Under the pieces are notes generated by a model. It was not told where the DNA came from. It ran no database searches and saw nothing but the letters and a program-made list of their open reading frames with translations. Positions 761 through 40,013 of a stretch of DNA of 42,854 nt are shown here, in pieces. The stretch's first letter is position 1, and each line of letters opens with the position of its first letter. Origin of the DNA: Catajapyx aquilonaris (lineage: Eukaryota); the NCBI GenBank assembly GCA_000934665.2, contig KZ538880.1, forward strand, positions 1-42,854, written 5' to 3'. The translations under genes were made by a program, and so were the position numbers.

Positions 761-2583
761 ATGGAGAGCAACGTTGCTGTCCTCAACCAGGCCAAGTTGT
801 ACATACGGTCAACGCTGCTGGCCGAGAAGGACGTAAGTCGTGCGGTGCAAAGTTGTGATATAATAATAAGGATTTTTGATATTTCCAGGGTCTGTCTCCC
901 AGCAAGTTGATGGGGTTGTATCGTGATATGGTGGGCCAGGACGTCCCTTGGAAGATACTAGGGTACGGCTCGGCCTTGTCCTTCCTGAGGTCCATACCCG
1001 ACACGGTGCAGGTCAGGGAATGCGGAGGGGAAGTCATGTTGATGTGCGTGGCTGACGCTTCCACTGCTCATGTGAAGGAGCTGGTCGACAAGAGCAAGAA
1101 GCGTCGTGCGAAGAAGTCTCGCTCTGGGCGGGCCCAGTGCAAGGGGGTATCTCCACCGGAAGAGAGTAGCACCCAGGATGCTCCAATTGTGAAGAAGAAT
1201 GCCATCAGTCAACCTAGACAAGGTAATAACCTGACTCGTATGTAGGAGGCGAGTGCATAGAATATATGGAATGTATTTTCACATTCCAGAAAAAATGGAT
1301 GACAATGCTGCGTCTGTGATCAATGAGACCAAGATGTACATACGGTCAATACTGCTGGCCAAGAAGAGACATGTAAGTCATGTGCCTTGTAATTTACTAT
1401 TACTTAATGTTCATGGTATTATGCATTATTTTGGCAATTTCAGTGTCTGAATCTCATCTGGTTTAGAAAGTTGTATCGTCGTAAGGTCGGCCAGGATGTA
1501 CCGTGGAAGCGGCTGGGATACAAATCAGTCGTGTCCTTCCTGAAGGCCATACCTGACACGGTGAAGGTCCAACAGTGGGGAGGGGGAGTCATGTTGAAGT
1601 GCGTGGCAGACGCTTCCACCCCGCATGGGAAGGAGCTGGCAGACAAGAGCTGCAGCAACCATTGCTCTGGCCGTGCCCAGGACCAGGGCGTACTGCTTGC
1701 ACCGAAAGGGACGTACGCCACGGTTGGGAAGAATACTATCATCAGTCATAATACCCCAACAATAACAGTATCTCCGACCTGTGCCAGACTCCAGGCCAAT
1801 TTAATCGAGATCACCCCTAGAGCTGCCACTGCCAGTCGTCCCATCCATCCCACCCCTGGCGGTATACGAGGCCCCCAAGCAGGTGTTGCATTCACCTGCC
1901 CTGTACAGAAACTGTTTGAACCTCAGGCTGACACAGTCCGGCCTCGGATCCAACCTAGTTCTGCCCCGAGCCGACTTCCACTCTCATCCGACTACTCGTC
2001 CACCAATTCCAAGGAAGGTTGGGCGCCTGCGAATGCAAGCGCAGGCACATTAGTAGACCAGAATGAAGTGGACCAGAGTTCGTCATCGCCTGAACAGGTC
2101 AGTCAGGTTTCTGTAGTGGTAATAGGTAATCCACATTCGCCGGTTCTGTAGGTAGCGAATGACATCACCGAGTCAGAAGTTGGCGTGTCCGGCGGGACCA
2201 AGATTCTTCCCGAAACCTTTGATGACATCCTGGCGGAAGTCGTGAGTCCGGAGATACTCTCTCAGATCCGTGCCATGCTTGCTCAGCATCCGGAAGGGAT
2301 CGCCTCAAAGCAGCTCAGGCAGCTGTACAAGGAGACGTACGGAGCTGACCTTCCTCGTGCCGAGCTGGTATGCAGCACCGTCCAGCAACTGACTCCGCAT
2401 CTGTCCGCTGTGGTGACACTACTGACGGGCCATACAAACGGACAGGTCCAGGAAAGCAAAGTAAAAAATGTACAGCCACATACCACGCCAGCTAAACCGA
2501 TATTTGCAATTGCACTTGCCTCGCTCACAGTGTACCTCATTACCCGTTGGCGTGGTAATAATAGCAAGTACGGAATTTACTGA
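761..2583 (+). CDS. LOTUS-only paralog of the TDRD5-like gene (partial tandem duplicate): eLOTUS-eLOTUS-Pro/Ser linker-LOTUS-hydrophobic C-tail, ~524 aa
   Basis: Exons 761-832, 889-1222, 1290-1372, 1444-2097, 2152-2583. All introns are GT-AG (56, 67, 71, 54 bp) and the joined 1575 nt are stop-free. MESNVAVLNQAKLYIRSTLLAEKD/GLSPSKLMGLYRDMVGQDVPW and MDDNAASVINETKMYIRSILLAKKRH/CLNLIWFRKLYRRKVGQDVPW both match the N-terminus of the 6112 gene. KILPETFDDILAEVVSPEI...QHPEGI matches its exon 5. It could instead be two separate or pseudogenised copies. Confidence 0.65.
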
Positions 2584-6111: not shown

Positions 6112-7772
6112 ATGGAGGGCAACGCGGTGGCGTTGCTGAACGAGGTGAAGATGTACATCCGGTCTACGTTGCTGGCCGAGAAGGACGTGAGTTTGGCTCC
6201 ATAGCGTACCTAGCGTCCTGATGATTCGGGTTGTGATTTCAGGGTCTGCCGCTCCACAAGTTCAGAGGGTTGTATCGTGATATGGTGGGACATGATGTGC
6301 CGTGGCAGCGCCTGGGGTACGACTCGGTCGTGTCCTTCATGAGGTCCATACCAGACACGGTGCAGGTCCGGCAGTACGGAGGGGAAGTGGTGTTGATGTG
6401 CGTGGCGGACGCATCCACCGCGCATGTGAAGGAGCTGGTCCAGAAAAGCCGCAGCAATAGCAGTCGTTCTAAGAGGTCTCGCTCTGGCGGGTCTCACTTG
6501 GGCGGATCTCACTTGGGCGGATCTCGCTCTGGCGGGTCTCGCTCCGGGGGCTCTCGCTCCGGTGGGCCTCGATCCAGCGGGTCTAGCTACAGCCGTACGA
6601 CCCAGTACCCGGGCGTACCTCCACGGCTTACGCCGGAAACGAGACGAGCCCAGGTTGCTCCAATTGTGAAGAAGAATGTCATCAACCTCCTAAGGTAACG
6701 GTCTGATCCAACCGTGTTCAGCGGGAAGACTAATTGACATTCTCTTGCAGGATACACACCCAAGGATTGTCCTACGCCGAGCTGTTGAGGCAGTACAAGG
6801 CCAGCTTCAAGATGCAGCTGGAGCTGATCGTTGCGGAGTATGCGAGTCCGGATCAGTTTGTTGATATTCTCCGCCCCGAAGTTACCACCACTCAAGTCCA
6901 AGGAGTTCACAAAGTGATTCTGTGCGGTGAGTACCTTTGTATGTCATCTTGAATTCGGTTTTTTAATTATATATTTCAATTTCGTGACTTGAAACCTGCA
7001 GGTGTAGGTCGGTGGAGTGTCTGGCCGGAATCTAATTAGCGTGAAGATAATTAGGGAGCATGTAATGTGTTGGTTTCAGGTTTCCAGCATGCATGTCGAA
7101 GCGGAATAATGTGGGCACAGCACTTTTCCAACTGCTCTCATTTTTTTTTGCTGCTCGAAAGTGCTGACTAGTTGTCTCCAATCGTTATTTTCAAGGGATT
7201 CAAGGTTCCTCGTAAACTTCAGTTGACCTTCAGACTTTTGTTCAAACAGTTGTCAGTGAACCTAAGGGCGATTATATTCTTGGTTGTGAGTCGTTTGCTA
7301 TTGCAGGTAACGTCAGAAGAACGACGGCAACAAGAGCATTTCCGTCTCATGCCAGCCCCCCCATCAACTTCAACGGCTTCATGTGGAAAGCTGTTCCGCC
7401 TGTGCCCCCGCCTGCGTTCAGCCCTAGAGAACCTCCGCCTCCCAGTCTTCCCATCCGTGCCAACCCTGCCCCTCTCCTAGGTCCTCAAGCAGGTAGCGCA
7501 TTCACCTGCCCTCAAGTAGGTAGCGCATTCACCTGCGCTGTACAGAAACCGTTTGAACCTCAGCCTGTCCGGCCCAGACCCCAGCCTAGTTCTGTCCGAA
7601 TGCGACCTCCTCCGCCTCCGCTCTCTGAGTCATCAGACACCTACTACTCATCCACCGACACCGAGGAAGGCTGGACACCTGTCAACACAAGCACAGGCAC
7701 AATAGTGGGACAGACCGAGGCGGATGAGAGTTCGCAATCACCTCAACAGGTCAGAGGATTTGTGTGCAGTTA

Positions 7773-7830
<58 letters not shown>

Positions 7831-10707
7831 CCTTTACACATGGTCATTCCATCCTTACTCATCCCCCCGTTACAGTAGATCAATTTCCCACTTCTTGCTA
7901 GTTCAGGAATCAGTGGAGAAGTCCCTGTGTGTGCAGTTAATGGTAAAAAGTAATCCGCAATTACCGGCTCTTTAGGTACTGGTAGCTAAAGACGTACCCA
8001 AGTCAGCCACAGAAGTTGGCAAGATGCATCCGGAAGAGAATGGCCACACTCATGAGCTTCCAGGCGTGTCCGACGGGACCAAGATTCTTCCAGAAACGTT
8101 CGACGACTTCCTAGGGGAAGTCGTAAGCCCCGAGATACGCTCGAAGATCCGTGCGGTGCTTTCCCAACATCCGGAAGGGATCACGTCGGACCAGCTCAAG
8201 CAAATGTACAAGGAGACATACGGTGCGGACCTTCCGCTTGCCGATCTGGGCTGCGATTCTGTACTGCAGCTGGCTCGGCATCTGACCGCTGTAGTAACGC
8301 TGGGCCAAACAAACGGAAATTGCCTTCTGTTCGACAGCCACGGGCACAAACCATCTCAGCAAGCAGCTAGGAGCAGCTCTCCCGCAGCCGAAGCAAATGG
8401 ACGGGTGGCACATGCGGACAAAGTGAACGCATCGGTTGCACATTTGGACAAACTGAACGCAGTGGTTGCACGTCGGGACAAACTGAATGGACCGGACTAT
8501 GAGGCCAAACTGTTACAGTGCATCCAACAGTTTAAGGAAGGCCTGGCGTACCAAAACATTGCGCAGGAGTTCAAGAAATTTACTGGGGAGGAGCTTCACG
8601 TAGGCCCGAACACAACGTTGGAGTGCATGTTAGCGGACATGAAGCCAGACATTGAGCTGTCGTACTCATGTAACGGCCTCAGGATAATCCCAGGCCGAAA
8701 GAGGCCGACTGTAAGTCAACACGGTATGGTCGCATTTCACGCTTAATAATTTTTTTTTGTAAAATGCAGCGTGCGAGTAACGCCAGAGAGGAGTCGGCTT
8801 CGGAGGTTCCGCAGCCTCAAGTCGTGTATGTCCCACCTGACGTTGTGGCCTTGGGCGAACAGTTTGTCTTCGAGACCTTGCCAGACTTCCAGACCATGGA
8901 CGAACTTGTGATTGTGGACGTCCAGGTGGTGGAGTACCGTTCGCCTTACGTGATCTTCTTCCACATCAAGGGCTGCCCCAAGTTCGAAGAGATGATGGAG
9001 CGAATGGGGCAGTTTTACGATGGACCGGACGGAAACAATTACATCATGCCTGAATCAGAGGTTATGGTCGGACGGATCTGCGCCGTTCCTTACACCGGCA
9101 TCTGGCACCGAGCCGTCATCACGTCACGAAAAGACAATGCAATCGGGGTAAGTCCACTGTTTGTAGCCGACAATTCATGTACCTCTAAACCCGGCTGTTT
9201 TCCAGATCAACTACGTGGACTATGGGACTAACGGTCAGGTGCACAGCCGGAATATGATCCGGCTGCTTCGTCAGGAGTACTTCACTCTTCCGGCGCAGGG
9301 AATCCGAGCCCGACTTTGCGGCGTTAAACCCATGGAGGAAAAGTGGCCGGGCGGCTCGATCCAGTTCTTATGGAACTATATTAACAGGCCGCTAGAGTTG
9401 AAGGCCTGTAATGTCCACTATAACATTGAAGTGAGTACAATAATCTCGCGGATAATGACACAATTTAAATGCAATTATTTACAGAGAAGTGCTCCAGATG
9501 TGGTTTTGCTGGATGTGACAGGTGGGAGCGTGACGTGCCTGAACGAGCTGATGATCAGCAGAGGGTTAGCAGAGGAGATTCCAGGGTGGCGATCGGTAAT
9601 GCAATATCCGCCTGGGCGTTACGAACGTGAGCCACATTCGGTTTCATTTCAGGTATTCAATCGCACGAAGGCGGCTCTTTCGGCCAGTTATCCTGCGGCT
9701 GTCGCACCCGCACCTGCCTTCGCAATGTCGTCTCATCCGATTGACAAGGTGAGCAGTTGGCTGCTGGCCAGCGCTTCCCTGTCCCCGTCGCCTGAAATGA
9801 CGCCGCAGAAACAAGCAGTGGCTCTGAACGGCCGAACCAGTGCAAGCCCAACTGCTCCGTCCGTCGCCTGTCCGGAAATGATGTCTTGGAACGACATGGT
9901 CAAAAAGGTCAGCCTGAGCGTCGCAACAGCCACGAAGACACCGCGTGGCGGACTAATAAGCGACAAGGCAGCGGCGTACCTCAGCCCAGACGCCGCCGTG
10001 GCCATGAACGGGTGAGATCACATGTTAGGATGAATCAAGCGGGAACTAATACGTTGCGGTTACAGATGGACAGGCTTCACTGCAGTTGACACCGAGAGTG
10101 TCGCCAGTCGCAGCCTCTTCTTGCGTGAGCCGCGATACGTCAAGGCATTCTGTAAGTACAAATCGTACATACTGATTGACGTTGCTCATGCGATGTTACG
10201 GTTGCAGCCTTGCCGTCAGGGAAGCGGGTTCATATGATTAACGTGAACGATGCGGCTTACATGACCGGGGCGGAGATTTCCTCGCTATTCCTTGACTGGC
10301 GGGGGATGGATCTCCTGGAAGAGATGCTGAAGAAGAAGGTGTTGGACGTCCCGTCTATGCAGGTCTATCGGTCGGAGAATCCGGTTCTGTTCAGACAAAT
10401 GCACAGGTGAGCGTTCAAAGCTACGTATTCAGATTCTGTTTCGTAACCGATGAACTTTGCAGAATGATGGTGCCAGGCTGCTTTCATGTCGCGACGGAGG
10501 TGATAACGGACAGTGTGACGCTTTACAGCATGTGGTATGTGGGGCAAGTGTTGATGCATCTGAACCATCCGAGCGCCGAAGTAATTACGGCGATTGAGGT
10601 GAGTTCGTTACCCTCATGATCCTTTACCCGTTAATTGTTTCCCCCGCACATTTCAGAATATTTCGGACACTTTCAATCACCTGGACGGATACTGGATGGG
10701 TTACTAG
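6112..10707 (+). CDS. TDRD5: Tudor domain-containing protein 5-like (Tejas/TDRD5 family): 4 LOTUS/OST-HTH domains + extended Tudor + C-terminal domain, ~1141 aa
   Basis: 13 exons: 6112-6186, 6243-6694, 6751-6926, 7307-7749, 7976-8710, 8770-9147, 9206-9430, 9485-9595, 9653-10011, 10066-10151, 10208-10406, 10463-10598, 10657-10707 (3426 nt, all GT-AG, phases consistent). LOTUS1 is IRSTLLAEKDGL...YRDMVG...LGY...SIPDTV with the C-terminal extension VADASTAHVKELV. Further LOTUS motifs: HTQGLSYAELLRQY, QHPEGITSDQLKQMYKETYG, FKEGLAYQNIAQEFKKFTG. Tudor: SPYVIFFH...CAVPYTGIWHRAVI...YVDYG...LPAQGIRARLCGVKP. A single Tudor favours TDRD5 over TDRD7. Confidence 0.85.
7775..7927 (-). mobile_element. 5'-truncated non-LTR retrotransposon/SINE fragment with (ATT)n tail in intron 4 of the TDRD5-like gene
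   Basis: 14-bp direct repeat TGTGTGCAGTTAAT at 7761-7774 and 7928-7941. An (AAT)n run (~7777-7830) forms the tail on the minus strand. The homologous 54-bp intron of the duplicate (2098-2151) lacks the insert. Confidence 0.75.
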
Positions 10708-11620
10708 CTTAAAAATGGTGCTGTTCCTACGCCTCAATGAGGAGGCGACAATTAGTCGCCGCATTTCATCATGTTTTTTGTATTTTTGTTTGTCATTTTC
10801 ATAAGGAGTCATCATGTTTGTGTTGCTTTATAAGACAAGAGATTAACTCCAGAGCGGAGTTTACTTTTTTACCATTGCCTGTATGATATCCAGACAATTT
10901 AAAGGGGGCTGAGTTGTACGAACGCAAATTAATGGAAGATCGCCTATGATTGTCACGCACTTGCGTTCACTCAACCAGCGCCTTCTCAAAAGTATTGGGA
11001 TACCGTACTTTCTTTTTTGTGGAAATAAAAAACTTGTATGTTTGTTAACAGATTTGTTTTGTTATTTTGGAATGAACTTCGATGAACGGTGTTCCTGGGG
11101 TGGCCCCACGTACTTGAACCAGTCTGTGTACGACCTCAGCGCGATCCAAGCCGGAGGTACGTAGCGTAATGCAGGCGGCTAGCAGGGTACGTTACGTGGC
11201 ACAGTGTGGTAATAAATGCATCTCAGTACCCCCCCCCCCCCCNCCCCCCCCTAGCTGCGCAATTATTATTCCATAACTTTCACTAAACTCTCAACTTGTC
11301 ATTAAACATAATTATAAAAAGAGTACATTTCAGTTTGAATTTTCCCGCTGTCCGTGTCCGAATAGTCCGACACCGGTTACGTCACTGTCACGTGACGGCA
11401 GCGTCCAAAACCGCGCTAATTTTTCAGCCAATCAGAGAGCAGCTGGACGATACCATCGATCGATAGCATCATTTTCCATCATTTTTTTGGTGACACATTG
11501 TTGTGAGGTGACATGTGATGGTGACAGGCCGAAATTGGTGACAAAAAAAAGTGACTCAGGATCCCTAAAGGTTTGTACTTGTCATAGAAATAATAACAAT
11601 CCGTTTATACACACTGTTTA

Positions 11621-11702
11621 TCCATGGAAATTGTTTGCCTGTTTGTTTGTCCATGGAAATTGTTTGCTTGTTTGTTTGTCCATGGAAATTGGTTTGTCCA
11701 TC
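11621..11702. repeat. 29-bp tandem repeat (tccatggaaattgtttgc(c/t)tgtttgtttg), ~2.8 copies
   Basis: Read directly upstream of the torsin-like gene. Confidence 0.85.
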
Positions 11703-11823
11703 GCAGTAATGATGGAGCAGGCATTGTTTAATTAAATTGTACATGACTTGTCATCACCCGGCAACTTGCATACCGTATATTAATTTTTATGTCGGCAGGT
11801 CATGTGAAGGGCGGAGGGGAACG

Positions 11824-12964
11824 ATGGAGACGGATCATAGTCCAAACGGGCCCAACAGCCCCCTGGTGCGGCGCAGGAGGCAGCTGCACCTGAACCGTGC
11901 GGTTGTGCCGTACTACGGTCTGCAGCGGCATGTCATGCACTCCCTAGGGAGGCAGCCGATGGTGCCGCAGATGTACAGGGGGGCCATCCGTAAGTGCACG
12001 TCAAATCAGGCGCAAATGGCACGCCAACTAATTACTTATTGTACGTACCGGTAGCGCAAGTTGCAACCGAACCGACGGGATGTACAGAGAGCGAGGCGTC
12101 AGAGGAGGAAGAACCGGTGGAGCAGGAGACAAACAGCGTCGCGTGGAAAGGACTAGCCATATTCCTAACCATTGTTGTCATAGCGCTTACAGCCGTAATG
12201 AGCGTACAATGGGTAACGTGCGAAGTGCAAAAAGGCAGAACGATCGACATCCCAGCGTTGAACCGGACGTTACGAGAGACCATCGTGGGTCAAGACGCTG
12301 CCATGTCGTCAATCGTTCAGGCTCTTACGAATTACGCGGACAACCCAGGTTAGTACGCACCGTACGACATGGCGCAGATGCACTAATTGGTTTAATTGCA
12401 GGTAACAAGCCGGTCGTGCTGATCCTGCAAGGTTGGACCGGCGTCGGGAAAACTTTAACGGCGCAAGTAATCGCAAGGCATTTCAAGTCGCATGGATTGG
12501 ACGTGCATTACCGCATTTCATCGCTGCTTGTGTCCAACATGACCGTGTCCACATGCGGATTGAGCCTCGTTGTACTGGACGATGCGGACAGCTCACACCG
12601 GACGTTCGTCGCCGATGTGATTCAAGCCAGCAGACAGCCTACGGTGATCATACTAGTGACCAGAAACTTGCCGGTAGACTTTGGCTTCAGCGACGAATCA
12701 AACTCGCATGCGATGAGGTTCCGTACGATTGCGGACGAACTCGGGTGCGAGTCGCACATGGCCCAGTTCAAGATGCTGAGCCGGAATGACGTGAGGGAAT
12801 GCGTCAGAAGATATTTAGACGGGGAATCAACGGCGATGGAGGACAGTGTGTTGGATCTGCTCAGTTTCTTCAACCTCGGAGAGACCGAGTTTGCGAAATT
12901 CGGCTGCAAACAAGCCCGAATAATGGCCAACTACGTGGCGGAAAAATCTGCGCTGAACATTTAA
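11824..12964 (+). CDS. Divergent membrane-anchored torsin-like AAA+ protein (Torsin-4A / LAP1-LULL1-like topology), ~340 aa
   Basis: Exons 11824-11989, 12055-12348, 12402-12964 (GT-AG, both phase 1). A basic then acidic N-terminus precedes the TM segment LAIFLTIVVIALTAVMSV. Torsin motifs: LRETIVGQDAA, KPVVLILQGWTGVGKT (Walker A), LVVLDDAD (altered Walker B), FAKFGCK (sensor II). AATAAA at 13041. Confidence 0.85.
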
Positions 12965-13177
12965 AACGCTTTGCTCCTGTTACGTGACTGTGATATTACG
13001 CAATTATTTTTTACTTACGACCTTGTAAATCTGTTGGGCTAATAAATATCCAATGGTCTCATGGCCTGTGATTGATGGCGTTTCTTGCGAACGGACATTT
13101 TGGCGACAAGCTTTCAATCTCGATAAATTTGATCAATATCCGGTTTTAAAAGGCGGGTTGTCACCGTTGCGTCAACG

Positions 13178-15290
13178 ATGATCGGGGTCGTACTTGTACT
13201 GACCGTATGTAGGGCGTACACACTGTATCCAATGCCCCTTAACGCTGATGTGGCGAAGGTTAATCGCGACTCGGCAGTCGCAGCGGACCTGATCCGTCAC
13301 ATTCTTGCGGCCGATGCATACGGCTGCTGTCCCAGATTTTACCATGACTTTGAGATTGTTCCGCTGACATTTCAAGCGCTTCTGCATGGCCTAAGTTCAC
13401 GCCTGTCTCCGTACGCTCTGTACCGCGTATTGGACTGGAAGGCCGTAGGTTCAGGACGGTACGAACCGCATCAGGTGCTGAACTTTCTACCGCAATGGAC
13501 CTGCTCGACTGCAGACCGTAAGCTCCCGCTGTCACCTCCGATGCCCAACGGTCCATGCGTCGTACACATCATAATTGCATCAGGCAAGTACGCACAGAGA
13601 ACAGCGGACATGTTGTGTTACATGTCACGCCGAGGCAACGCAGGACAAGACATAGTGATGAACCATCATTTATTCTTCTACTGGAACCGAGACGGAACTG
13701 AAGAGTCGCTAACGACTGCGAAGGATCCGTCGGTATTCAAGCACAATCTGCATGCGACCATCCAGGGGAAGAGCGTCCGACTGTACCGCAGCAATTGCAA
13801 CCGTAAGTACACTGCGACTAAGTCCCGCCCGAAATTTACTGTTCAATTTTCAGAGACGAGACTGATCAACTTTTACAACGTTTCCGTTGCGGACTTGATT
13901 GTTCCGGTGAAGTTGTTCGAAGAGCCGTCCTGTCGCTTCAACGGTATCGAAGTGCCGTTCATGGTGCTCGTACCATTCGGCGGGTTGTCCGGCCGGATAC
14001 GTGAAGACATTAACGACACTCATCCGCTGTACACTGGTCCGCGATGGATGCGAGACCTAGGTCGCTCCATGAACTTCGTCGCAAACCAGCATTTCGGCGG
14101 GATGCACCATTTCTTCCGGTCCTTCGGAAACGGCACGTGCGAGGTCCGTATTTGCTCTGATTATTTAACCGCAATGTAACCGCGATTGTATCCAGCAGGG
14201 CTACACAGGATTGTTGCACATGAAGCGATACGTGGTCGCCCTGCATCTGCAGCTTCCCCAGATGCATGGGTCGTACGATGCGATCATGGTGCAGTACCCG
14301 TACTTCTACGACTGGTTCACCTTCTACATAATCAACCCGCAGGTCGTCTTCTCCTGGACGTCGTTCATGGAGCCGTTTTCAACCAGTATGTGGTCCGTCT
14401 CGTTGGTAATGTACATCGGATCGTCTGTCGCACTCTGGGGCTTATGGCGCACGGTGCGGATGCACGGTTCGCTCGGACGCAGCTTTCAGGATCTGTACGC
14501 CGTGCTGCTGACCCAAGCGGCGGAGATGCCAGCGAATCTGACTGTCCGCACTTACATGGCCACGGTGCTTCTCTGCTTCATGGTGCTGGTTTGGGCATAC
14601 CAGAGCATCCTCTTCGTGTTTCTGATGAAGCCTAGGAAGGAGCACATACCCGAGTCATTCGAGGAGTTAGCTCAGAGCGACTACTACTGGGTGTTCTACG
14701 AGGTGATCCTGCGTGACCAGCTGGCTAATTACGCCGCACTTCCAGACGTCAAAGCGTTCCGGGCTGTCCTTCCGAAGATGCAAACCCGCTTCCTCGTGGA
14801 AGGGTCCGAAGCGCTGTGTCTCGGTTCGTGCATACAATCGCCAAAGAACGCTTGTATCGGCACACGCTTCTTCGCAGACCAGACCAAGTTAAAGTTCTAC
14901 AGCGACCGGCTGGGTAATCCGATGCTGACTAGAGCCCCGGACAAGTTCTTCCAGTTTGGATTCACCATTGCGGCCACCCGGGACTGGCCGTACTGGGAGC
15001 TTCTGTTGAAGTCGGTCCTGCGATGGTTCGAAGGCGGTATTACGCCTTGGTGGTACGACTATATGGCGTTGCAGTCGTGGTTCGCAACCAGAAGGCCTAA
15101 TCAGACCAAGCTGGTGGAGGAAATCGATGATGGTACGTCGCTCCGGCCAATTCGCTGGGGGATGGTGCAAGGCGTATTCGCTTTACTATTCGCAGGGTAC
15201 GTCCTAGCTGCGGTGAGCTTCATGTACGAGGTGATGGCCGGATGCTGGACAAGGCGGAAAAGACAGCCTGCACGCATCTTTATAAAATAG
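13178..15290 (+). CDS. Divergent ionotropic receptor (IR, variant iGluR family chemoreceptor), ~668 aa
   Basis: Exons 13178-13802, 13854-14143, 14199-15290. Signal peptide MIGVVLVLTVCRA; S1-like GNGTCEGYTGLL; PFSTSMW+M1; pore LYAVLLTQA; M3 RTYMATVLLCFMVLVWAYQSILFVFL; S2 PESFEELAQS...RWFEGGI; M4 GVFALLFAGYVLAAVSFMYE. The first intron (51 bp, in frame) is less certain. Confidence 0.85.
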
Positions 15291-15376
15291 CGCTGATTGA
15301 CATGCAATGTTGAAATGTAGACATGCACTTTATTCAATAATGAGTGGCGGATGATCTAGTATTAATGAAGCGTCAG

Positions 15377-17686
15377 TCAGAGTTCGTCTTTCATTGCTGC
15401 ACCGATTGAGTACATGTAGCGGTCCACTTTTTGCGCCACTCTTTTGCAGCCGGTGGTTGAAAACAGCTTGGCGTCGTCCGGCCAGTAGATCAGCTCGTCC
15501 GCTATTTCCCTGCAAAGTGGCGGTGTTAACGACAGGCCTGTTGCACCGACAGTGGTACTTACGAGACGGCTGCGTCGTCAAGGGTCAGTTGGTAGTCGGT
15601 TTGAACCCGATTCTGTATGCATAAGATGACGTGCTTCCTCTCCATTGGGAAGAAAGGCACGTAGTAATTAACGAGGCTTCCGCCAACGACGTCGCTCAGG
15701 TGCAGCCCGCCCTTCTCGTTGAAGGCGCCTTGTTGCAGCAGATGCTCCACATCTGCAACGAGTAGGCGTCCCTGTGTACAAATCAGTAGGCCCCCCGATT
15801 AGAGGGGAGGGTGCGAGACCCACCTCTGAACCTGATGTCCTCCCGTCTCATCCCCTCTGTCCAGGCGTCGTAGGCCATGGACTTGAGCGCCCCCCCTCCC
15901 GTGTTGCTGAGGAAGACGAAGACGGAGTGGCGGTGGTTGACCCCGTCGATGTTGTCGTGGAAGTCCAGGAAGGGCTTCAGGGCGTCGATCATCCCCACGG
16001 GCATCTTGTCGATCTCGTCAAACACGTACAATGAGTGGGCGCATCTGGACGTGTTGCCGCTTATCCAGGAACGCAGCTGGTCCTGGAGAATGAAAAGAAA
16101 AAAAAAAACACCCCAATATTTACAACACACAGGTCAGGTCATGTCAGGTCACGTCGGGTACGGTAATGTTATATCAGTTCAGGATAGTGAACTGATATAA
16201 CCTAACAGGCTATTATAACTGAACATGACCTAACTAATATAATAGCTGAATGTATAGCTAAACCTAACTAACCTAACAGCAAAATATGACCTATTATAAC
16301 TAATACAGCTGCCCATGAACTAATATAACTAATACAGCTGTCCATGAACTTATGTAACTAATACAGCTGCCCATGAACTTATGTAACTAATATAACTGAC
16401 CATGAACTGATATAACTAATACAGCTGTCCATGAACTTATGTAACTAATACAGCTGTCCATGAACTAATATAACTAATACAGCTGCCCATGAGCTGATAT
16501 AACTAATACAGCTGCCCATGAGCTGATATAACTAATATAACTGACCATGAGCTGATATAACTAATATAACTGTCCATGAACTAATATAACTAATACAGCT
16601 GCTTATGAACTAATATATCTGCCCATGAACTGATATAACTGACCATGAACTAATATAACTGACCATGAACTAATATAACTAATACAGCTGACCATGAACT
16701 GATATAACTGCCCATAAACTGATATAACTAATATAACTGTCCATGAACTAATATAACTAATACAGCTGACCATGAACTAATATAACTGCCCATAAACTGA
16801 TATAACTAATATAACTACCCATGAAGTAATATAACTAATACAGCTGACCATGAACTAATATAACTGACCATGGCCTAAACTAGTATATTCACTCATGGTA
16901 TTAGGTTATATTAGTCAGTTACATTAGGTCATGTTCAGCTATATTAGTTTAGCTCATGTTCAGCTATATTAGTTTAGCTCATGTTTGGCTATATTAGTTT
17001 AGCTCATGTTCAGCTATATTGGTTTCAGCCATGTTCAGCTATATTAGTTTAGATCACCTTAGGTTAGTCTATGTTCGGCTATATTAGTTTAGGTGACATT
17101 AGGTTAGGTCATGTTCAGTTACATGAGTTTCGGGCTCTGTGTTAATTCAGGGATAATGTTAGGTTGACTTGCCGCGTATCGAGGGACGTCCTTCTCGTGT
17201 GGGAAGTGTATGGGGGAGATGTACTGGTGGACGTAGCGGCTCTTCATCCCCTCCACGGGGTAGAGGGCCTGGGCCACGAAGTTGCTGACGTAGTTCTTCC
17301 CCGTCCCTGTCCAGCCGTGGAAGGAGAGCACCAGGGCCTTGGAGGGGTTGGGGTTCCTCACGTGCTGGCCCACAGCAGCCATGATCAGCTCCTTGGCCAG
17401 GTGCTGCCCGTGGAGGTGGCTGTCCAGGCTGTGCTGGAGCCCTGCAATGACGATGGTCAGCTTGCTTCGGGGGATAACCACAGCGTACGTATAATATACT
17501 CCTACTGGTCATGTCGGCCTTGCTCCAGCCTTCGTTGCAGCACTCGGCGAAGCTGCAGTAGACGAACCTCATGGCGTGGTAGAACCCGCTGCCTATCCCA
17601 CCGGTGCCTCCACCAGAACCGGACTCTCCTGCTCCAGCGAGGCACACGACCATCACCAGCAGCACCAGGTGGTGGTACCTCCGCAT
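15377..17686 (-). CDS. Torsin: Torsin (Torsin-1A-like ER/perinuclear AAA+ ATPase), ~343 aa, C-terminal KDEL
   Basis: Exons 17686-17506, 17441-17173, 16082-15824, 15752-15563, 15509-15377. Signal peptide; YCSFAECC; LHGQHLA; KALVLSFHGWTGTGKNYV (Walker A); YVFDEIDK (Walker B); FLSN (sensor I); YVPFFPMERKHV; IADEL; FSTTGCKRV (sensor II); ends AMKDEL*. Minus-strand AATAAA at 15334-15329. Confidence 0.95.
16165..17118. repeat. AT-rich minisatellite/foldback array in torsin intron 2
   Basis: ~19/28-bp units (ccatgaactaatataactaatacagctg) over ~16300-16870, then related ~25-bp units in inverted orientation (tcatgttcagctatattagtttagc) over ~16928-17118. Confidence 0.9.

Positions 17687-20225: not shown

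Positions 20226-40013
<19,788 letters not shown>

What the first reader, a model, noticed from the sequence alone, without database searches (positions are those of the whole stretch)
11824..17686. Convergent pair: canonical torsin plus a membrane-anchored torsin-like protein with LAP1/LULL1 topology
Seen: the + gene has no signal peptide, an Arg-rich (RRRR) then acidic N-terminus, one TM helix and a compact torsin fold. Walker A (GWTGVGKT, T in place of torsin's N) and GCK are retained, but Walker B reads DDAD instead of DE, and no obvious LAP1-type arginine finger precedes the ESHMAQF strand. Known: torsins need the type II membrane pseudo-ATPases LAP1/LULL1 for activity, and mutating the Walker B glutamate impairs hydrolysis. 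Inference: an ATP-binding, hydrolysis-poor partner or evolutionary intermediate between torsins and their cofactors, or a very divergent Torsin-4-like protein, encoded 2.4 kb from its candidate partner.
Basis: partly seen in the sequence, partly recalled or inferred. Interest (0 to 1): 0.7.

Follow-up and report, generated by a model that had tools for sequence, protein, structure and literature searches.

The report
Membrane-anchored Torsin-4-like gene beside torsin
Both genes are real, but the odd one is most likely an arthropod counterpart of the little-studied, membrane-anchored vertebrate Torsin-4A rather than a stand-in for the torsin activators LAP1/LULL1, which this genome encodes separately.

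Summary
Both gene models hold: spliced contigs of one public run show every intron. The + gene (340 aa; one TM helix; GKT Walker A; DD Walker B; GCK) is not a local oddity. It belongs to a copepod/butterfly subfamily of type-II membrane torsins: Walker B Asp in 29 of 29 rows, against Glu in 10 of 10 others. It keeps the torsin small domain and both sensor-2 cysteines, which LAP1/LULL1 lack, and has no arginine finger. A separate LAP1/LULL1 gene lies on another contig. It is not a recent copy of the neighbouring torsin (AU p = 1.6e-5), and an ionotropic-receptor-like gene lies between the two. The nearest ESM Atlas cluster to a copepod member is chordate Torsin-4, the one mammalian torsin with a predicted TM helix (PMC5350507). 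I could not retrieve a Torsin-4A sequence, so orthology is untested by tree. Likely role: a membrane-tethered, ATP-binding, slow or dead torsin module that receives partners on its front face, not an activator. Binding to the neighbour and conserved synteny remain untested. Earlier scan notes held nothing on it.

The parts
11824..12964 (+). Membrane-anchored torsin-like gene ('torL'), 3 coding exons (11824-11989, 12055-12348, 12402-12964), 340 aa; 5'UTR intron 11571-11798
   Evidence: introns skipped in contigs; subfamily profile 116 bits vs canonical-torsin profile 52 bits
11824..12151 (+). Polar N-terminal tail (residues 1-87) with RRRR and an acidic run, inferred cytosolic or nucleoplasmic
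   Evidence: 9 K+R, 11 D+E; orientation inferred
12150..12206 (+). Single transmembrane helix (residues 88-106), 76 residues before Walker A; coordinates approximate
   Evidence: KD 2.59; 21 of 28 relatives have a helix 62-84 residues before Walker A, and the other 7 begin too late to show it
12402..12964 (+). Exon 3: torsin AAA core (GWTGVGKT, LVVLDDAD, about 26-residue deletion after sensor 1) and small domain with the two torsin cysteines and GCK
   Evidence: (pLDDT 88.5)
13178..15290 (+). Intervening ionotropic-receptor-like gene, probably one ~685-aa protein with a short intron near 14144-14198; unrelated to the torsins
   Evidence: Lig_chan E 2.5e-5, under cut-off; intron model, not confirmed by reads
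15377..17686 (-). Canonical signal-peptide torsin, 343 aa, 5 coding exons, with a GC-AG intron at 16083-17172

Best explanation
The + gene is an expressed, fast-evolving member of a conserved arthropod (copepod and butterfly) subfamily of type-II membrane torsins, most likely the counterpart of vertebrate Torsin-4A. Shown: the gene structure, the subfamily membership, the torsin fold with small domain, the motif states, and a separate LAP1/LULL1 gene in this genome. Inferred: it is anchored in the ER or nuclear-envelope membrane by one helix, with the AAA module in the lumen. It probably binds ATP through an intact P-loop and GCK sensor 2. It probably hydrolyses slowly or not at all (Walker B Asp for Glu, altered sensor 1). 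It cannot activate another torsin (no arginine finger) and lacks the TorsinA 'back' face Gly. It would therefore act as a nucleotide-gated, membrane-tethered dock or scaffold that receives partners on its front face. Its place near a canonical torsin is a remnant of an ancient duplication or chance, not evidence of a dedicated pair.
For: Subfamily: an unbiased phmmer scan returned 14 hits at E<=0.001, of which 9 are TM/DD-type torsins. Named members are Calanus, Neocalanus, Danaus LOC116765704 and Brenthis. With torL left out of the profiles it scores 116 bits on the subfamily profile and 52 on the canonical one. Tree of 22 rows: the subfamily with torL is split from the canonical torsins plus P0013 at 99/98. 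Walker B second acid is D in 29 of 29 subfamily rows and E in 10 of 10 others; both small-domain Cys are present in 39 of 39. Fold: the top three Foldseek hits are TorsinA chains; model 1-181 aligns to TorsinA 93-331, Z 12.6, rmsd 3.3 over 177 residues. The subfamily profile hits TorsinA at E 2e-44. LAP1/LULL1 lack Walker motifs and the small domain (PMC4358337, PMC4999309). Own LAP1/LULL1 gene: LAP1_C above cut-off, and its only two PDB hits are LAP1 and LULL1. Torsin-4 link: the nearest ESM Atlas cluster to copepod member P0005 is 'Torsin family 4, member Ab' (0.96, 1416 members), and Torsin-4A is the one mammalian torsin with a predicted TM helix. Recalled, from no call: human Torsin-4A also has GKS and a DD Walker B.
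Against: No vertebrate Torsin-4A sequence was retrieved, so orthology rests on one language-model ranking, one literature sentence and recall. In one search canonical torsin clusters follow at 0.95, almost tied. The same Atlas search with torL exon 3 itself gave only generic AAA clusters. torL is a long branch and joins the long butterfly branch weakly (83/73). With LAP1-like and ClpA rows added the subfamily is no longer one group. The subfamily profile scores the canonical neighbour (123 bits) slightly above torL (116), so torL is very divergent even there. P0013, a TM torsin with a DE Walker B, groups with the canonical torsins, so TM-anchored torsins may have arisen more than once. The folding alignment included 9 canonical torsins, which may bias the model towards TorsinA, and thymidine kinase ties on Z over the core alone. 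All activity statements are inferred from motifs.
Confidence: 0.68

Rival explanations
1. Same subfamily and same inferred mechanism, but an independent arthropod invention: a torsin paralogue that gained a TM anchor and a Walker B Asp in parallel with vertebrate Torsin-4A.
For: All named members retrieved are copepods or butterflies. The profile searches pulled canonical vertebrate torsins but no Torsin-4A. P0013 shows a TM torsin that groups apart from the subfamily.
Against: The word-seeded searches are insensitive (capped at 7999 candidates; 341 candidates). The ESM Atlas ranks chordate Torsin-4 first for a copepod member. TM position, Walker A and Walker B states would all have to converge (the Torsin-4A motif states are recalled).
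Confidence: 0.15
2. The first reader's partner model, in the form the anatomy allows: torL binds canonical torsin, receiving that protein's back face on its own ATP-bound front face. It would cap torsin oligomers and tether them to the membrane, as a non-activating counterpart of LAP1, and the linkage of the two genes reflects this.
For: torL keeps the front-face elements (P-loop, small domain, GCK) and lacks the back-face Gly and about 26 residues before it. TorsinA oligomerises through front/back contacts in an ATP-dependent way (PMC5638581 passages). Fly torsin function depends on membrane association and oligomerisation more than on ATPase activity (PMC8408595 passages). Both transcripts occur in the same run.
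Against: An unrelated receptor gene separates the two genes. Four more canonical torsin copies lie on another contig without such a partner in the 22 kb read. No second species is shown to keep the linkage. The two proteins are very distant (one 61-residue BLAST segment at 33%).
Confidence: 0.11
3. torL is a LAP1/LULL1-type activator, or a direct intermediate on the way to one.
For: Type-II topology and an altered Walker B. In trees the LAP1-like protein falls outside the canonical clade, near the subfamily, and a torL+LAP1 grouping is not rejected (AU p = 0.448). LAP1 and torsins probably share an ancestor (PMC4358337 passage).
Against: No Arg at the finger column in 29 of 29 subfamily rows; Arg one column earlier in 1 of 29. 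P-loop and small domain are retained. Pfam scans of exons 2 and 3 list Torsin (weakly) and no LAP1_C. A true LAP1/LULL1 gene with the finger Arg and the expected cysteines exists in the genome. The LAP1 placement involves long branches meeting.
Confidence: 0.06

Closest known systems
Torsin-4A (TOR4A / C9orf167, vertebrates)
   Same: Torsin AAA module with a predicted TM helix (PMC5350507 passage). Nearest Atlas cluster to a copepod member of the subfamily. Recalled, not from a call: no cleaved signal peptide, basic N-terminal tail, GKS Walker A, DD Walker B.
   Different: torL is shorter (340 aa), lacks about 26 residues after sensor 1 (shared with the butterfly members) and has an altered sensor 1.
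TorsinA/B and canonical arthropod torsins (PF06309 + PF21376)
   Same: Fold including the small domain, both Cys (TorsinA C280, C319) and GCK sensor 2.
   Different: TM anchor after a polar tail instead of a signal peptide; GKT for GKN; DD for DE; no back-face Gly; about 19% structural identity to TorsinA.
LAP1 / LULL1 / Drosophila TorIP (PF05609)
   Same: Type-II topology with a luminal torsin-related domain.
   Different: LAP1/LULL1 lack the Walker motifs and small domain and carry a conserved arginine finger; torL shows the reverse on each point. The genome's real member is on contig C749.
Uncharacterised arthropod proteins: Danaus plexippus LOC116765704, Brenthis ino CAH0728813.1, Calanus and Neocalanus transcript proteins
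   Same: TM helix 62-84 residues before Walker A, GK[T/S], Cys before strand 3, Walker B Asp, C-terminal GC[K/R].
   Different: Only about 21-31% identical to torL exon 3; copepod members have much longer N-terminal tails.

Membership tests
Torsin family | HCLR-type AAA+ large domain with torsin sequence signature | tested here: met
   Best PDB sequence hits are TorsinA (E 8e-5); Foldseek top three are TorsinA. Pfam Torsin on single exons is below cut-off; 8 of the 10 relatives scanned are above it.
Torsin family | C-terminal small domain with Cys280/Cys319 and GCK sensor 2 | tested here: met
Canonical torsins (Tor1/2/3 type) | Cleaved signal peptide, GKN Walker A, DE Walker B | tested here: not met
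Canonical torsins (Tor1/2/3 type) | Groups with the canonical clade or with the neighbouring torsin | tested here: not met
   Canonical clade 100/99 excludes torL; torL plus neighbour rejected, AU p 1.6e-5
LAP1/LULL1 | Type-II membrane topology | tested here: met
   Hydropathy only; orientation inferred
LAP1/LULL1 | No Walker A/B and no C-terminal small domain | tested here: not met
   P-loop, acidic Walker B and small domain are all present
LAP1/LULL1 | Conserved arginine finger before strand 5 | tested here: not met
   the column was mapped by inference from the strand-5 position and from the genome's own LAP1-like protein
LAP1/LULL1 | Stimulates torsin ATPase | not testable with these tools
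   needs an enzyme assay
Torsin-4A | Torsin module with a predicted TM helix | tested here: met
Torsin-4A | Orthology in a tree with vertebrate TOR4A | tested here: inconclusive
   No TOR4A sequence retrieved; only an Atlas ranking for a relative
Arthropod TM/DD torsin subfamily | TM helix 62-84 residues before Walker A, GK[T/S], Walker B Asp, GC[K/R]; groups apart from canonical torsins | tested here: met
   the Walker B column was included in the tree, and torL is a long branch

The most novel reading that the evidence does not exclude
The membrane-anchored DD torsins (this gene, its copepod and insect relatives, and probably Torsin-4A) are an ancient third arm of the torsin system and the sister group of LAP1/LULL1. 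They would be ATP-locked, membrane-tethered caps that bind the back face of canonical torsin oligomers, with this locus keeping the old linkage between the pair.
Probability: 0.12. Interest if true: 0.62.

Novelty: new member of a known kind. Interest (0 to 1): 0.3.

Why it matters
In the papers my searches reached, Torsin-4A is mentioned only in passing. If the orthology holds, a Torsin-4-type protein is not limited to vertebrates but is kept in copepods and butterflies. Its invariant Walker B aspartate would then point to a conserved role that needs little or no ATP hydrolysis, in line with fly data that torsin function is largely ATPase-independent. That gives invertebrate models and a clear experiment for the orphan human paralogue. 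The locus itself, two torsin paralogues with a receptor gene between them, shows no new system.

Tried and rejected
1) Word-seeded homology search with torL exon 3: 159 candidates, none scored. 2) Two attempts to retrieve vertebrate Torsin-4A: a 10-sequence profile (37 hits, none named Torsin-4A) and a targeted two-fragment profile (10 hits, all already-known subfamily members). Supplement searches gave only a protein row and an N-terminal peptide of human TOR4A. 3) Single-sequence AlphaFold model: pLDDT 45.8, discarded. 4) ESM Atlas with torL exon 3: generic AAA clusters only. 5) Complex prediction of torL exon 3 with the luminal part of the genome's LAP1-like protein: no answer, score 0.02, folded without alignments; no evidence either way. 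The torL plus neighbouring torsin pair was not folded, because the torsin's spliced sequence could not be submitted. 6) Synteny: a metagenome scan gave 7 canonical-torsin loci of 1.2-5.3 kb, too short to test, and none held a subfamily gene. 7) LAP1 and LULL1 chains are not among the listed fold matches; absence from a list excludes nothing. 8) The tree with ClpA and LAP1-like rows showed long branches meeting, so it was rebuilt without them and without 7 near-redundant or truncated rows. 9) Exon 2 was given in the wrong frame; corrected. 10) No RNA holder was listed by the run search; the single run X1 is of unrecorded kind, and the intervening receptor gene is almost uncovered in it. 11) Literature searches listed no paper on an arthropod membrane-anchored torsin or on Torsin-4A function. 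The library lacks most subscription papers, including the Rose et al. 2015 review, and bioRxiv supplements were closed. 12) Earlier scan notes: 0 hits by sequence; 6 word hits for 'torsin', all on prokaryotic AAA proteins by their descriptions.

Full report
Observation. The + gene ('torL') is built from exons 11824-11989, 12055-12348 and 12402-12964 and encodes 340 aa. The - gene has five exons from 17686 to 15377 and encodes a 343-aa canonical torsin with signal peptide, GWTGTGKN, VFDE and FSTTGCK. Contigs of one public run skip all six coding introns, including a GC-AG intron, and one 5'UTR intron in each gene. The run's kind is not on record, but spliced contigs imply RNA.

It is a torsin, not a LAP1/LULL1. 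LAP1 and LULL1 lack Walker motifs and the C-terminal small domain and supply an arginine finger (PMC4358337, passages; PMC4999309, first part of Results). torL shows the reverse. A model of exon 3 folded with a 39-row alignment has pLDDT 88.5. Its top three Foldseek matches are TorsinA chains, and it aligns over residues 1-181 to TorsinA 93-331, which includes the small domain (Z 12.6, rmsd 3.3, 177 aligned). Two caveats apply: the alignment held 9 canonical torsins, and thymidine kinase ties on Z over the core alone. Both small-domain cysteines are present in 39 of 39 rows. The genome also has a separate LAP1/LULL1 gene on contig C749. It has a TM helix and no Walker A, scores above the LAP1_C cut-off, has LAP1 and LULL1 as its only two PDB hits, and carries an Arg and terminal Cys where expected. 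The activator slot is therefore filled.

It belongs to a conserved subfamily. An HMMER scan of 1.84 billion representatives with exon 3 gave 14 weak hits. By their sequences, 9 are TM/DD-type torsins, 1 is a TM torsin with DE (P0013), 1 is a canonical torsin fragment, 2 are Clp ATPases and 1 is a repeat protein. A profile search extended the set. Named members are from Calanus, Neocalanus, Danaus and Brenthis; the butterfly entries are uncharacterised or unnamed in NCBI. Of 28 relatives, 21 have a hydrophobic helix 62-84 residues before Walker A, and the other 7 begin too late to show it; in torL the distance is 76. The second Walker B acid is Asp in 29 of 29 subfamily rows and Glu in 10 of 10 others. 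The residue after Walker A GK is Thr or Ser in all 25 relatives that have the motif, and no row has Arg at the finger column (1 of 29 has Arg one column earlier). With torL left out of the profiles it scores 116 bits against the subfamily and 52 against canonical torsins. In a 22-row tree the subfamily, torL included, is separated from the canonical torsins plus P0013 at 99/98. A clade of torL with the neighbouring torsin is rejected (AU p = 1.6e-5), so this is not a recent tandem copy. Against this neatness: torL is a long branch, its join to the butterflies is weak (83/73), the LAP1-like row cannot be placed (torL+LAP1 not rejected, p = 0.448), and the subfamily profile scores the canonical neighbour at 123 bits.

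The Torsin-4A link. For copepod member P0005 the nearest ESM Atlas cluster is chordate 'Torsin family 4, member Ab' (0.96, 1416 members), then an unnamed arthropod cluster (0.96), then canonical torsins at 0.95. PMC5350507 (one passage) states that Torsin-4A is unique among mammalian torsins in having a predicted TM domain, citing Rose et al. 2015, which I did not see. From memory, not from a call, human Torsin-4A also has GKS and a DD Walker B. Two searches failed to retrieve a Torsin-4A sequence, so orthology is likely (about 0.7) but not tested by tree.

How it probably works (inferred). A single helix anchors the protein with its AAA module in the ER or perinuclear lumen. In TorsinA the nucleotide site and small domain form the face that binds LULL1, and a back face with Gly251 mediates ATP-dependent homo-oligomers (PMC5638581, passages). 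torL keeps the front-face elements, but the Gly251 column is not Gly in any of the 9 subfamily rows shown. torL and the butterfly proteins also lack about 26 residues just before it. With Asp for the catalytic Glu and an altered sensor 1, the simplest reading is an ATP-binding, slow or inactive module that can receive a partner but cannot activate or extend a torsin chain. Glu-to-Asp need not abolish hydrolysis, so this needs an assay. An ATPase-independent role fits fly data: torsin function largely survives loss of ATPase or activator (bioRxiv 10.1101/2025.11.07.687155, passages), and a TM-anchored torsin chimera rescues (PMC8408595, passages).

The pairing. Nothing beyond proximity and presence in the same run ties the two genes. 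An unrelated gene lies between them. Four further canonical copies sit on contig C49 with no subfamily gene in the 22 kb read. Synteny in other species could not be tested. Neighbouring torsin paralogues in opposite orientation are known in humans (TOR1A and TOR1B; PMC3352338, passage), so an old duplication remnant or chance is enough. A non-activating cap model, with torL binding the back of canonical torsin, fits the anatomy and is kept as the novel case at low odds.

Verdict. This is a divergent member of an unannotated arthropod subfamily that most likely corresponds to Torsin-4A. My eight literature searches listed no description of the arthropod subfamily, but the library omits most subscription papers. 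Interest 0.3; new member of a known kind.

Noticed in passing
window 13178-15290 (+): Ionotropic-receptor-like gene between the two torsin genes; two ORFs can be joined by a 52-82 nt GT-AG intron into about 685 aa.
   Followed up: partly
G000:C749, L010:1351-2238 (-): The genome's LAP1/LULL1 homologue (TM helix, LAP1_C, finger Arg, terminal Cys), convergent with a TPR-repeat gene.
   Followed up: yes
G000:C49, about 78.5-86 kb (L007): Cluster of four canonical torsin copies: two on + that look complete and two on - with in-frame stops or frame changes.
   Followed up: partly
window 16083-17172: 1,090-nt GC-AG intron of the canonical torsin, filled with AT-rich degenerate repeats; splicing seen in contigs.
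   Followed up: partly
window 910-2583 and 6282-10015 (+): LOTUS (OST-HTH) domains twice over, with a Tudor domain in the second set; looks like a duplicated TDRD5/7-type germline gene (family name recalled).
   Followed up: no
window 38864-40013 (+): NT-C2 domain gene of the EEIG1/EHBP1 type.
   Followed up: no
window 12101-12155: A low-depth contig with five substitutions in the acidic part of torL's N-terminal tail; an allele or an assembly error.
   Followed up: no
P0013 (unnamed, 459 aa): A torsin with a long N-terminal tail and TM helix but GKT and a DE Walker B, branching between the subfamily and canonical torsins; a possible intermediate or a second origin of the anchor.
   Followed up: partly
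PMC13380729 supplement rows: Human TOR4A is listed as S-acylated at Cys21, which would fit a cytosolic N-terminal tail (inference).
   Followed up: no
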